A stretch of DNA of 64,000 bases from an uncultured Gemmatimonadota bacterium. GTDB lineage: Bacteria; GCA-2686955. Positions 27,806 through 32,233 of this stretch are shown here, in pieces; position 1 is the first letter of the stretch, and every line of letters begins with the position of its first letter. The notes beneath the pieces were generated by a model. The model was not told where the DNA came from. It worked only from the letters and a program-made list of their open reading frames with translations, and searched no databases. The stretch lies in assembly GCA_964490075.1 (NCBI GenBank), contig CAZBBK010000002.1, forward strand, positions 114,105 to 178,104, written 5' to 3'. Made by a program: the position numbers and the translations under genes.

Positions 27806-28234
27806 TCAGTCGTGGATGTCGAAGGGATAGGGGAAGGGCTCCAGGCAGCGCCGCGGCGTGCCCGGATTCACCATCGGAATCTGGAAGTACATCGGGTTGA
27901 GCGGCAGATAGTCCGGATTCCAGAGCTTGCTCGCCTCCGAGGAGTAACCCTGGGTCGGCAGGGTACGCGCGAAGAGATGATAGGTAGTGCCGCGCTCGAG
28001 CTCGCGGTACGCCGCGTCGACCGAGTAGACCCCGTTGTGATCCGCTTCCACGAGATCGGAGACCCGGATCGGGCAGGGCGTCATCGGGCTGTAGTAGCCG
28101 ATGAAGACCTGCGCCCCCTCGAGCGGGAATCCCCGTTGATCGGTCACCGTTCCATAGGCGATCACGCTGTGAGCGAACGATGCCGACGTCATGGCCAGCA
28201 CGAGAAGCGATGCGATGGCGGAGTTGCGGAACAT
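27806..28234 (-). CDS. Small secreted protein with carboxypeptidase-regulatory-like beta domain
   Basis: AAAGGGG RBS; signal peptide MFRNSAIASLLVLAMTSASFA; 'YGTVTDQRGFPLEGAQV...ADHNGVY'. Confidence 0.72.
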   Translation of the reverse strand: MFRNSAIASLLVLAMTSASFAHSVIAYGTVTDQRGFPLEGAQVFIGYYSPMTPCPIRVSDLVEADHNGVYSVDAAYRELERGTTYHLFARTLPTQGYSSEASKLWNPDYLPLNPMYFQIPMVNPGTPRRCLEPFPYPFDIHD

Positions 28235-28466
28235 TGTCGTCCCCTTTCGGCTCGCCTCGACCGCGCCCCCACGCGGTGCGCCGATACCGGCAGCCACCGG
28301 GGCTGGCAGCGGGAAGAATCGCGAGCAACTGTTTTTCTCGGGTGTCGACTCCGCGGCGCGAGTCGTCGCGGAAGCGATGCAGAGCACCCTTGCGAACGCG
28401 GCGCCGGACGGCCTCCGCGGCCAACACCAAACCGCAAGACCCGGGCCAGTTTCGGCGATCTCGTCG

Positions 28467-28482
28467 AGCTTCTATGTTGCCA
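28467..28482 (-). promoter_or_regulatory. Possible sigma-54 promoter (GG-N10-GC)
   Basis: Minus strand TGGCAAC-ATAG-AAGCT; correct spacing but lacks the TT before GC. Confidence 0.35.
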
Positions 28483-28685
28483 ACACTTTGCACTCTGTTT
28501 CTCGAGTCCCAGCTCGGCCATCTGCGCACATCGCGCGCTCATCGTCTCGGCCTCTAAAAGGCAACTCGCCATGAGACAATCGATTGGCTCTGCGCCAATG
28601 CTGCGCAGCCGAGGGCGCCTCGCTGCGCAAGAAACGCTGCTTCCGGAGTTGGACGTGGACGCTCTGGCCCTCTCTCGACGACTAC

Positions 28686-31601: not shown

Positions 31602-31900
31602 CACCGCGTCGCCCGCTGCGATCGAGGCAGCGCCTTTTCGCGCAACAACTGCAGCCAGGCAATCCAGGAGCTTCGTTCCTGCCCGATCGGCTCGGGGCGG
31701 GCACACAGGGTGCCCACGGAGACACCGGAGTCCGGTGGAGGGGGCTTTTCGTAGGGCAGGACGACGCCGGCATCGATCGGCTGGAGCCCGGGGTTCTTGG
31801 GCCGATCCGCCCAGGCGGAGGTCGTCAGACCGAAGCTCAGGGCCAACGCGGCCGCGGATGCGCGAATCGCCGGCCCAACTCGAGAGTTCGCATGGTGCAT
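31601..31900 (-). CDS. Small (99 aa) signal-peptide-bearing protein coupled to the bEBP gene
   Basis: GGAGA RBS; MHHANSRVGPAIRASAAALALSFGLTTSAWA then DRPKNP...; TGATG overlap with the bEBP start. Confidence 0.7.
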   Translation of the reverse strand: MHHANSRVGPAIRASAAALALSFGLTTSAWADRPKNPGLQPIDAGVVLPYEKPPPPDSGVSVGTLCARPEPIGQERSSWIAWLQLLREKALPRSQRATR

Positions 31901-32002
31901 CGCGGTTCTCCGGTCGATCCTTCCGGGCGCTCCAGAGCACGTCTCCAGCGTATTCTCGGAACGCCGAATCCGCAACGGCTCCGGGGGGGACTCCTCCAGT
32001 TG

Positions 32003-32018
32003 CGCAAGGAACGCGCCG
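32003..32018 (-). promoter_or_regulatory. Putative sigma-54 (-24/-12) promoter
   Basis: Minus strand CGGCGCG-TTCC-TTGCG versus consensus TGGCACG-N4-TTGC(A/T); about 100 nt upstream of the peptide ATG. Confidence 0.6.
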
Positions 32019-32233
32019 AGCTCGGTCGAGCCGACCGCGTGCCGCGCGGGTCATTGTCTGACACCGTGTTGCGCACCCTGCGGTGGATCGCGCAACGGCC
32101 GCTGGCGCGCAGAATCGGCGCGCGGGGCGGCGCGAGTCCGCGCAGATCGTGCGCGGGCGAGCGCATTGAATCCCATCGAGCCCTCGCGTAGCCTGCGATC
32201 GACGATTCCCCCATCACCCCGCGGCGAGGAACC

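What the first reader, a model, noticed from the sequence alone, without database searches (positions are those of the whole stretch)
27806..32100. Candidate peptide-sensing sigma-54 module: secreted propeptide coupled to a TPR-GAF-AAA+ activator, with its own sigma-54 promoter
Seen in sequence, minus strand in order: a -24/-12-like element (CGGCGCG-TTCC-TTGC, 32003-32018); a 99-aa ORF with RBS and Sec-type signal peptide (..TSAWA|DRPK); a TGATG overlap into a 971-aa bEBP with a long TPR-like N-terminus, GAF, intact GAFTGA and HTH; then a 142-aa secreted protein. There is no receiver domain and no nearby kinase. Established knowledge: RRNPP regulators (Rap/Phr, NprR/NprX, PlcR/PapR, AimR/AimP) pair a TPR receptor with an adjacent small exported propeptide, but they are mainly known from Firmicutes and do not use sigma-54 AAA+ output. 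Inference: this may be a quorum-sensing-like or peptide-inhibited bEBP system in a diderm candidate phylum, and the sigma-54 promoter on its own operon would give positive feedback. I do not know of a described system with this layout.
Basis: partly seen in the sequence, partly recalled or inferred. Interest (0 to 1): 0.85.

Follow-up and report, generated by a model that had tools for sequence, protein, structure and literature searches.

The report
Exported mini-protein paired with TPR sigma-54 activator
A small exported protein, a sigma-54 transcription activator with a long protein-binding sensor and a small secreted target protein form a conserved gene set in a little-known group of uncultured bacteria, which points to an undescribed way of switching this kind of activator.

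Summary
On the minus strand lie a 99-aa ORF with a signal-peptide-like N-terminus (31601-31900) and a 971-aa sigma-54 activator (28686-31601) that starts on the last base of the small ORF's stop codon (TGATG). A 142-aa exported protein follows (27806-28234). Folding shows TPR superhelix, long helix, GAF, AAA+ with GAFTGA, and HTH. rpoN is present.

New here:
- A small signal-peptide ORF overlaps the activator's start in 7 of 8 family copies that have 5' context, in 4 genomes.
- The sensor module is rare: 16 representatives at E<=1e-30 among 1.84 billion.
- The 142-aa gene has its own -24/-12 element, conserved in 3 genomes.
- One 17-bp inverted repeat sits at fixed spacing upstream of both promoters, so the activator probably drives its own operon and that gene.

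Whether the small protein signals to the TPR is unproven. Co-folding gave no verdict and the co-variation test was inconclusive. It meets four of the five RRNPP criteria (Sec export only by a heuristic) but fails receptor size, and it differs in output and cell type, so it is not filed as RRNPP. The scan's earlier, unchecked notes describe similar layouts on other DNA, with no sequence look-alike. Four paper searches found no described system. Verdict: new variant of a known kind, interest 0.62.

The parts
32106..32122 (.). 17-bp inverted repeat (CGCGC-N7-GCGCG, ATT/AAT core), a candidate enhancer (UAS), 87 nt upstream of the small-ORF promoter
   Evidence: only 19 such motifs in 5.7 Mb, two of them in this locus (the motif was defined after seeing the sites). 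The orthologue G003 has the same motif 84 nt upstream of its promoter.
32003..32018 (-). sigma-54-type -24/-12 element CGGCGCGTTCCTTGCG (P1), about 100 nt upstream of the small ORF
   Evidence: Weak by chance alone (0.3 such sites per kb per strand). It aligns with TGGCTCGCCACTTGCG in the orthologue.
31601..31900 (-). small ORF, 99 aa: signal-peptide-like N-terminus (..TSAWA|DRPK), Pro/acidic middle, Trp motif SWIAWLQLL, basic tail
   Evidence: GC3; n/h/c heuristic; orthologue E 3e-7; alignment of 7 family members. It is also listed as a called protein in the public collection.
28686..31601 (-). sigma-54 activator (bEBP), 971 aa; its ATG shares one base with the small ORF's stop (TGATG)
30417..31577 (-). 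TPR-like superhelix, residues 9-395 (about 20 helices)
   Evidence: AlphaFold model, pLDDT 87. Foldseek matches LGN/Pins, OGT and APC3 TPRs, and Rap at rank 31. Pfam TPR hits are weak only.
30282..30401 (-). long connecting helix, residues 401-440
29775..30269 (-). GAF-fold domain, residues 445-609, directly before the AAA+ domain
   Evidence: Domain model, pLDDT 86.8. Top solved matches are GAF domains, including NifA 8jrc and Nlh2 4g3v. No Pfam GAF hit.
29208..29705 (-). Sigma54_activat AAA+ domain, residues 633-798, with GAFTGA at 707-712 (nt 29466-29483)
28728..28838 (-). C-terminal Fis-type HTH, residues 922-958
   Evidence: HTH_8, E 0.0012, 18.9 bits, under the 22-bit cut-off. GGNQRAAAR is conserved across 5 family members.
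28591..28607 (.). second copy of the 17-bp inverted repeat (TGCGC-N7-GCGCA), 142 nt upstream of P2
   Evidence: The motif sits at the aligned place in G003 (146 nt) and G001 (140 nt).
28433..28448 (-). sigma-54-type -24/-12 element TGGCCCGGGTCTTGCG (P2), 214 nt upstream of the 142-aa gene
   Evidence: It aligns with TGGCCCGCTGCTTGCA (G003) and TGGACCGGGTCTTGCA (G001).
27806..28234 (-). 142-aa exported protein, the likely target gene; weak CarboxypepD_reg-like start
   Evidence: (E 0.055, under the cut-off). Orthologues of 66% and 61% identity lie directly downstream of the activator orthologues.

Best explanation
This is a conserved sigma-54 regulatory cassette.

Shown:
- A small protein with a Sec-type signal-peptide architecture is translated just ahead of, and coupled to, a cytoplasmic activator built as TPR superhelix, long helix, GAF, AAA+ and HTH.
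- The pairing persists through several duplications, while the genes downstream differ.
- Two sigma-54-type promoters carry the same 17-bp inverted repeat at fixed spacing. One precedes the small ORF and the other precedes the gene for a 142-aa exported protein.

Inferred:
- The activator binds that repeat and turns on both its own operon (positive feedback) and the 142-aa gene.
- The small protein is the activator's cognate input. The whole pre-protein before export, or a piece that comes back from the periplasm, binds the concave face of the TPR.
- That binding is passed through the long helix and the GAF domain to permit or block assembly of the AAA+ ring.

I favour capture before export: export removes a bound partner, so activator activity follows export or envelope state. 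My odds are about 0.25 for this route, about 0.15 for a re-imported fragment and about 0.05 for a tether or signal-peptide remnant. The stated confidence covers the partner role by any route.
For: - Pair conservation. A stop/start overlap occurs in 7 of 8 family copies with 5' context, across 4 genomes: 1-nt TGATG here, ATGA in 5 copies, and a GTG start about 17 nt inside in 1 copy.
- Shared architecture despite 2-36% pairwise identity. All 7 small proteins have a net positive n-region, one hydrophobic segment and no second one, at least one Trp and at least one Cys, and a Trp motif before a basic tail.
- The downstream genes differ between paralogues. The small gene therefore travels with the regulator, not with the targets.
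- Of the three paralogue loci scanned, two have no sigma-54 element upstream and one has only a weaker candidate. There the small gene is mostly not under clear control of the activator.
- The TPR is a protein or peptide-binding fold.
- Sensor and partner both evolve fast. Between the window and G003, AAA+/HTH is 78-95% identical, GAF mostly 65-82% (42-52% across its variable loop), TPR 32-75% and the small protein 20-60%.
- A crude control over 24 regex-caught bEBP-like frames of this genome (of 52 Sigma54_activat matches) flagged 4. Two are family members. The other two looked by eye like tails of larger upstream genes.
- Regulon wiring.
- rpoN is present and GAFTGA is intact.
Against: - Nothing shows binding.
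- The identity matrices of small proteins and sensors do not correlate significantly (Mantel p about 0.16 with 7 pairs).
- After export, the mature protein and the activator are in different compartments.
- One family copy (G001:C385, a short contig with repeats upstream) shows no such ORF.
- The signal peptide was judged by heuristic only, and the window's own hydrophobic segment is the weakest of the seven (KD 1.77).
- The 17-bp repeat was defined after the sites were seen, in a GC-rich genome.
- The family is known from only 4 draft genomes of one lineage, so the copies are kin rather than independent trials.
- No expression data exist.
Confidence: 0.45

Rival explanations
1. The small protein is only a co-expressed exported product, for example an envelope or periplasmic factor. 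It has no signalling link to the activator. The TPR and GAF domains sense something else, such as another protein or a small molecule in the GAF pocket.
For: Nothing shows binding. The co-variation test was not significant. GAF domains of NifA/NorR-type activators sense small molecules or partner proteins on their own (established knowledge; fold match). All downstream genes seen encode exported-looking proteins (by eye), so the cassette as a whole may simply serve the envelope.
Against: The small gene stays fused to the regulator's start through duplications, while the targets change. Where no clear sigma-54 promoter precedes it (two of three paralogues scanned; a weaker candidate in the third), it is not under clear control of the activator. 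Its sequence diverges faster than expected for a structural envelope protein, 20-60% between orthologues whose AAA+ domains are 78-95% identical.
Confidence: 0.3
2. The cassette is an RRNPP-like quorum-sensing system: the propeptide is secreted, processed outside, accumulates with cell density, is re-imported by an oligopeptide permease and binds the TPR receptor, here with a sigma-54 AAA+ output.
For: It meets 4 of the 5 signature criteria given in PMC10075063 (passages read): propeptide of 10-100 aa, Sec-type signal (heuristic), TPR receptor and adjacency. Rap is among the structural matches (rank 31). Five Opp/Dpp-type binding proteins are present in the genome. An autoregulatory promoter would give the positive feedback usual in quorum sensing.
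Against: The receptor is 971 aa against 250-500. The best fold matches are generic TPRs, not RRNPP receptors. Across an outer membrane, a peptide must leave and re-enter the cell to report density. No processing site, exporter or dedicated importer lies nearby. The part best conserved between orthologues is the start of the mature region, not a C-terminal peptide. No homology to any RRNPP family appears in Pfam or NCBIfam.
Confidence: 0.12
3. The small ORF is a cis-acting leader in the manner of secretion monitors (SecM, VemP, MifM). Its translation or export state sets how much activator is translated from the overlapping start, and its protein product has no role of its own.
For: It has an N-terminal export signal plus a stop/start overlap with the next gene. 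The window's activator start has no clear Shine-Dalgarno of its own (by eye).
Against: No conserved C-terminal arrest motif exists; the tails differ in length and sequence. The downstream gene is not a Sec or YidC component. Most paralogues do show a Shine-Dalgarno-like GGAG/GGGA before the activator start (by eye). A 4-nt overlap gives simple coupling, not the stem-loop unmasking used by known monitors (recalled knowledge).
Confidence: 0.08

Closest known systems
GAF-regulated sigma-54 activators (NifA, NorR, Aquifex Nlh2)
   Same: A GAF domain lies directly before a Sigma54_activat AAA+ domain with GAFTGA and a C-terminal Fis-type HTH. The GAF fold matches NifA (8jrc) and Nlh2 (4g3v).
   Different: It has an extra 395-residue TPR superhelix and a 40-residue helix at the N-terminus. 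It has a conserved, coupled small exported-type protein. It reaches no NCBIfam equivalog cut-off.
RRNPP peptide quorum-sensing pairs of Bacillota (Rap/Phr, NprR/NprX, PlcR/PapR, PrgX, Rgg/SHP, AimR/AimP)
   Same: A small Sec-type propeptide gene lies next to a cytoplasmic TPR protein (signature criteria from PMC10075063, passages). Both partners evolve fast.
   Different: The receptor is 971 aa with GAF-AAA+-HTH output instead of an HTH or phosphatase domain of 250-500 aa. There is no sequence homology. The host is an uncultured lineage labelled Gemmatimonadota in record titles, presumably diderm. The small protein is 99 aa with no evident C-terminal pheromone.
Export-coupled regulators (recalled knowledge, not tested here): FlgM/sigma-28, and TPR chaperones IpgC-MxiE and SicA-InvF of type III secretion
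   Same: The logic I favour is the same: a partner destined for export holds a regulator, or a TPR co-activator, until export removes it.
   Different: Those systems use the flagellar or type III export apparatus and separate chaperone and activator proteins. Here the export signal is Sec-type and the TPR is fused to a sigma-54 activator. No homology was tested or claimed.
PspA-PspF (trans-acting inhibitor of a sigma-54 activator)
   Same: A separately encoded protein would gate a bEBP in response to envelope state (recalled; see also the abstract of PMC3791423 in the listing).
   Different: PspF has no sensor domain and PspA is not exported. PspA acts on the AAA+ domain, not on a TPR.

Membership tests
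bacterial enhancer-binding protein (sigma-54 activator) | Sigma54_activat AAA+ domain over the Pfam cut-off | tested here: met
   PF00158, E 1.2e-66, 224 bits against a cut-off of 20.2, residues 633-798
bacterial enhancer-binding protein (sigma-54 activator) | GAFTGA loop and Walker A/B motifs intact | tested here: met
   GAFTGA at 707-712, GESGTGKE and LFLDEIGE read in the translation. GAFTGA, most of the GESGTGKE positions and the FLDEI core are invariant in the 5-member alignment.
bacterial enhancer-binding protein (sigma-54 activator) | C-terminal Fis-type HTH | tested here: inconclusive
   HTH_8 scores 18.9 bits, under the 22-bit cut-off. The GGNQRAAAR motif is conserved.
bacterial enhancer-binding protein (sigma-54 activator) | rpoN in the genome and -24/-12 promoters nearby | tested here: met
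   rpoN scores 432 bits, over the cut-off. Two -24/-12 elements are conserved in orthologous loci. Promoter function itself is untested.
GAF-type bEBP (NifA/NorR/Nlh2-like) | GAF fold immediately N-terminal of the AAA+ domain | tested here: met
   By fold only: the top Foldseek matches are GAF domains, E about 5e-6 to 1e-4. No Pfam GAF hit.
RRNPP quorum-sensing pair | small propeptide (10-100 aa) | tested here: met
   99 aa; family members are 95-120 aa
RRNPP quorum-sensing pair | propeptide exported by Sec (SignalP) | tested here: inconclusive
   An n/h/c heuristic is positive in 7 of 7 small proteins. SignalP was not available.
RRNPP quorum-sensing pair | receptor about 250-500 aa | tested here: not met
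   971 aa; the TPR part alone is about 390 aa
RRNPP quorum-sensing pair | receptor carries peptide-binding TPRs | tested here: met
   TPR superhelix by fold. Pfam TPR hits are all under their cut-offs. Peptide binding itself is untested.
RRNPP quorum-sensing pair | propeptide and receptor genes are direct neighbours | tested here: met
   Stop/start overlap
RRNPP quorum-sensing pair | mature peptide is re-imported and binds the receptor | not testable with these tools
   Opp-type binding proteins exist in the genome. That is necessary but not sufficient.
secretion-monitor arrest peptides (SecM/VemP/MifM) | conserved C-terminal arrest motif, and a downstream Sec/YidC-pathway gene | tested here: not met
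   No conserved C-terminal motif in the 7-member alignment. The downstream gene is a bEBP.

The most novel reading that the evidence does not exclude
Small exported proteins are the cognate signals of a class of TPR-sensor sigma-54 activators in diderm bacteria. This would be a protein or peptide-sensing input for bEBPs, working either by export-coupled release or by re-import. It would be evolutionarily independent of RRNPP. If the scan's earlier unchecked notes on Zixibacteria and Acidobacteriota cassettes hold, it recurs in several uncultured phyla. Paralogue-specific pairs within one genome (three intact here) would then act as insulated channels.
Probability: 0.25. Interest if true: 0.85.

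Novelty: new variant of a known kind. Interest (0 to 1): 0.62.

Why it matters
Sigma-54 activators are textbook one-signal switches, gated by phosphorylation, small ligands or a few partner proteins. A TPR sensor that reads a genetically coupled, exported mini-protein would add a new input type. It would also give a peptide or protein-sensing circuit outside the Bacillota.

The cassette is compact: two promoters, one enhancer motif and three genes. Sigma-54 systems usually transfer well to E. coli, so the idea can be tested directly although the organism is uncultured. The paralogous pairs offer natural specificity variants, which is also of interest for building orthogonal circuits.

If the small protein proves irrelevant, what remains is an ordinary GAF-type activator with an unusual N-terminal extension, plus a mapped small regulon.

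Tried and rejected
- Co-folding of activator residues 1-610 with small-protein residues 32-99, using my own alignments (after queue-full answers). The result was no verdict (runs 0.33, 0.25, 0.00; mark 0.32). It is not evidence either way.
- Wider search for the family. The search for related loci on genome contigs failed because the alignment had no conserved stretch. A degenerate DNA pattern scan of genome contigs returned only three loci already known. The search for related loci on metagenome contigs gave 263 pattern matches, none confirmed. The search for homologous proteins found 2 orthologues for the sensor, 1 for the 142-aa protein, and for the small-protein profile only the same family members.
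- Mantel test of small-protein against sensor identity, 7 pairs: rho 0.25, p about 0.16. Inconclusive.
- Sequencing runs: no RNA holder listed. The four DNA holders all belong to one study, and one may be the source.
- Rfam scan of 27300-32500: no match.
- Sigma-70 promoter scan: 0 sites. One terminator-like site was found, on the plus strand only.
- ESM Atlas gave nothing usable for the small protein. For the 142-aa protein it gave only unnamed clusters and one with CarboxypepD_reg in 26% of members.
- PEP-CTERM idea for the 'PEP...hydrophobic...basic' tail: no NCBIfam hit, the hydrophobic stretch is about 9 residues, and PEP is not conserved. Rejected.
- A lipoprotein or Tat signal was considered by eye: no lipobox and no twin-arginine consensus. 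Rejected.
- A longer activator starting at 32054 (1122 aa): rejected on GC3 and lack of conservation.
- Paper searches (listings and abstract starts only, except passages of PMC10075063) found no description of a TPR-bEBP coupled to an exported small protein. Supplements were not consulted.
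Full report
**What is in the sequence.** On the minus strand of 27806-32122 the order is as follows.
- A 17-bp inverted repeat lies at 32106-32122.
- A -24/-12-like element, CGGCGCGTTCCTTGCG, lies at 32018-32003.
- A 99-aa ORF (31900-31601) is preceded by GGAGA.
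- A 971-aa ORF has its ATG (31601-31599) sharing one base with the small ORF's TGA.
- A second copy of the repeat lies at 28591-28607.
- A second -24/-12 element, TGGCCCGGGTCTTGCG, lies at 28448-28433.
- A 142-aa ORF (28234-27806) has an RBS and a signal-peptide-like start.

The window is 69% GC, so long open frames are cheap, and the activator's frame is open up to 32054. Two tests place the real start at 31601. Third-position GC is 0.76-0.88 in the small ORF's frame between 31900 and about 31620 and rises to 0.85-0.97 in the activator's frame only downstream of about 31600. Between this window and its orthologue, the small-ORF frame is conserved as protein (E 3e-7), while the activator-frame extension over the same DNA is not (E 0.99).

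**The activator.** Pfam gives Sigma54_activat (E 1.2e-66, residues 633-798), AAA_lid_14 and a sub-threshold HTH_8, plus only weak TPR hits. It gives no GAF and no receiver domain. NCBIfam matches many sigma-54 activators but reaches no equivalog cut-off. GAFTGA, Walker A and Walker B are intact.

An AlphaFold model of residues 1-610 (15-row alignment, pLDDT 87, pTM 0.74) shows about 20 helices from 9 to 395, one long helix at 401-440, and an alpha/beta domain at 445-609. Foldseek against the PDB matches the helical part to generic peptide-binding TPR superhelices (LGN/Pins, OGT, APC3, designed CTPRs). Rap comes at rank 31. The last domain, modelled alone (pLDDT 86.8), matches GAF domains first, among them those of the activators NifA and Nlh2.

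**The genome.** The genome has rpoN (432 bits) and 52 Sigma54_activat matches in 5.7 Mb.

**Who else has it.** The genome sits in a very small group: its GTDB phylum holds 5 genomes in the collection searched. Record titles of two relatives call them Gemmatimonadota or Gemmatimonadetes MAGs.

A profile of the 600-residue sensor, run against 1.84 billion representative proteins, gave 16 proteins at E<=1e-30. The remaining hits in the best-150 list (19,008 proteins in all at E<=0.001) are mostly multi-stretch matches to a short part of the TPR region, as generic TPR proteins give. The word-based search of 5.8 billion proteins found two orthologues. JGI metagenomes yielded none. Within the phylum the sensor occurs in 4 of 5 genomes, in several paralogous copies each.

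**The pairing.** I examined every family copy whose 5' end lies on a contig.

A small same-strand ORF whose stop overlaps the activator's start is present in 7 of 8:
- the window;
- G003:C55 (the orthologue, 56% identity in the sensor);
- G002:C172;
- G002:C207;
- G000:C67;
- G001:C536;
- G000:C12.

The overlap is ATGA in five, TGATG here, and a GTG start about 17 nt inside the small ORF in G000:C12. The eighth copy, G001:C385, lies on a 1.7-kb contig with repeats upstream and shows no such ORF. Two further copies on G000:C70 look broken, with a transposase-like ORF nearby.

The seven small proteins (95-120 aa) share little sequence, 2-36% pairwise, but they share one plan:
- a basic n-region of 9-21 residues (net +2 to +5);
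- one hydrophobic segment (12-residue Kyte-Doolittle mean 1.8-2.9);
- small residues at candidate cleavage sites (AWA|D, AQA|Q, VRA|D, VQA|D in four);
- no second hydrophobic segment;
- an acidic or proline-rich middle;
- at least one Cys;
- a Trp-bearing motif (SWIAWLQLL, VAAWLRDL, PWFWAWLRGFW, RWIAARLKQL, PWWRALIRM, SWRLWYERL, SIWIHLTRML);
- a tail rich in basic residues.

Several of them are called as genes in public annotations.

As a crude control I scanned 24 bEBP-like frames of this genome, caught by a strict regex out of the 52 matches, for an overlapping upstream signal-like small ORF. Four were flagged. Two are family members, and the other two looked by eye like the tails of larger upstream genes. 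The third family member, C67, escaped the regex.

**The wiring.** In the orthologue, however, a better site (TGGCTCGCCACTTGCG) aligns with it. Of the three paralogue loci scanned, two have no convincing site and G000:C12 has only a weaker candidate.

It has orthologues of 66% and 61% identity directly downstream of the activator orthologues in G003 and G001. All three carry an aligned -24/-12 element: TGGCCCGGGTCTTGCG, TGGCCCGCTGCTTGCA and TGGACCGGGTCTTGCA.

Upstream of both promoter types lies a 17-bp inverted repeat, YGCGY-N7-GCGCR with ATT or AAT in the spacer.
- It is 87 nt (window) and 84 nt (G003) from P1.
- It is 142, 146 and 140 nt (window, G003, G001) from P2.

The motif occurs 19 times in the 5.7-Mb genome, two of them here. 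I defined it after seeing the sites, so the count is only indicative. The independent support is its recurrence at fixed spacing in the other genomes. Among the paralogue loci it appears only in G000:C12, as expected if paralogues have their own DNA specificity.

I infer that the activator binds this repeat and drives both its own operon and the 142-aa gene. The 142-aa protein has only a sub-threshold CarboxypepD_reg-like start and resembles unnamed small proteins in the ESM Atlas, so its function is open. Downstream of the paralogues lie other exported-looking genes. By eye these are a 277-aa secreted protein followed by a protein that looks like gamma-glutamyltranspeptidase on C67, and an 884-aa protein that looks like a TonB-dependent receptor on C12. 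These were not tested against Pfam.

**How it may work.** Shown: the architecture, the coupling, its conservation and the promoter-enhancer layout. Inferred: the rest.

The small gene stays with the regulator while the targets change. Where no clear sigma-54 promoter precedes it, it belongs to the regulator's operon and not to the regulon. The sensor is a fold made to hold peptides or proteins. Both sensor and small protein evolve fast. Between the window and G003, AAA+/HTH is 78-95% identical, GAF mostly 65-82% (42-52% across its variable loop), TPR 32-75% and the small protein 20-60%. This is the pattern of cognate specificity pairs, so I read the small protein as the activator's input (0.45).

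The route is open. I favour capture of the pre-protein before export, so that export drains an inhibitor or co-activator and the activator follows export or envelope state. The alternatives are a fragment taken back up from the periplasm (the genome has five Opp/Dpp-type binding proteins) and a tether through the unusually long basic n-region. Signal transfer through the long helix and GAF to the AAA+ ring follows what is known of NifA/NorR-type activators.

Against all this: nothing shows binding, the co-variation test is not significant, the export signal rests on a heuristic, and all copies come from four related draft genomes. The main rival (0.30) is that the small protein is just a co-expressed envelope product.

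**Comparison with known systems.** As an activator it is a member of the bEBP family and, by fold, of the GAF-regulated kind. Against the five-point RRNPP signature of PMC10075063 (passages read) it meets small size, TPR and adjacency, is positive for Sec export by heuristic only, and fails receptor size. It also differs in output domain and host, and has no sequence homology to any RRNPP family. So it may work like an RRNPP pair but is not one. It does not fit secretion-monitor leaders, because it has no conserved arrest motif and the downstream gene is not a Sec component.

Four full-text searches (listings and abstract starts only) turned up no described TPR-bEBP with a coupled exported protein.

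Earlier notes of this scan are AI notes that I did not check. They describe similar layouts in other uncultured phyla: e1-5089244, e1-5252651, e1-907140 and e1-4359981. No window shares sequence with this sensor. If those notes hold, the layout is recurrent and convergent, or too diverged to detect.

**Verdict.** The peptide-sensing interpretation is plausible but unproven, and the quorum-sensing form of it is unlikely. It is a new variant of a known kind, with interest 0.62.

Noticed in passing
G000:C70:27067-29557 (loci L008, L010, L015): Two adjacent fragments of the same TPR-GAF activator family lie next to a transposase-like ORF. They cover sensor positions 133-516 and 386-602, with frames that break. 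They look like disrupted paralogues.
   Followed up: partly
protein P0025 (485 aa, from the representative search; genomic place unknown): This is a relative of the TPR sensor (E 4.5e-26, one stretch, positions 60-427) that ends directly in a Fis-type HTH, with no GAF or AAA+ domain. It is a TPR-HTH protein of RRNPP-like size. It was not found in G000-G004 beyond a weak match.
   Followed up: partly
G000:C67:10289-12848 and G000:C12:41758-44412: The genes right after two paralogous activators differ from the 142-aa gene. On C67 there is a 277-aa protein with a signal-like start, then a 572-aa protein that looks by eye like gamma-glutamyltranspeptidase. On C12 there is an 884-aa protein that looks by eye like a TonB-dependent receptor. 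Neither locus was Pfam-tested.
   Followed up: no
window 24246-25418 (+): This 390-aa protein combines an RNase_H_2 superfamily domain with C-terminal TPRs.
   Followed up: no
window 33513-35708 (+): This long ORF has a middle part that reads by eye like an ECF-type sigma region 4, followed by a zinc-finger anti-sigma-like motif (H..C..C) and a hydrophobic segment. It was not scanned against any library.
   Followed up: no
whole genome G000: There are 52 Sigma54_activat matches in 5.7 Mb. Several lie in open frames of 1100-1750 aa, a very large set of sigma-54 activators for this genome size.
   Followed up: no
L005 (G001:C385) 1-340: Tandemly repeated DNA (translating as repeated PVPGRV.. units) lies just upstream of the one family copy that lacks the small ORF.
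   Followed up: no
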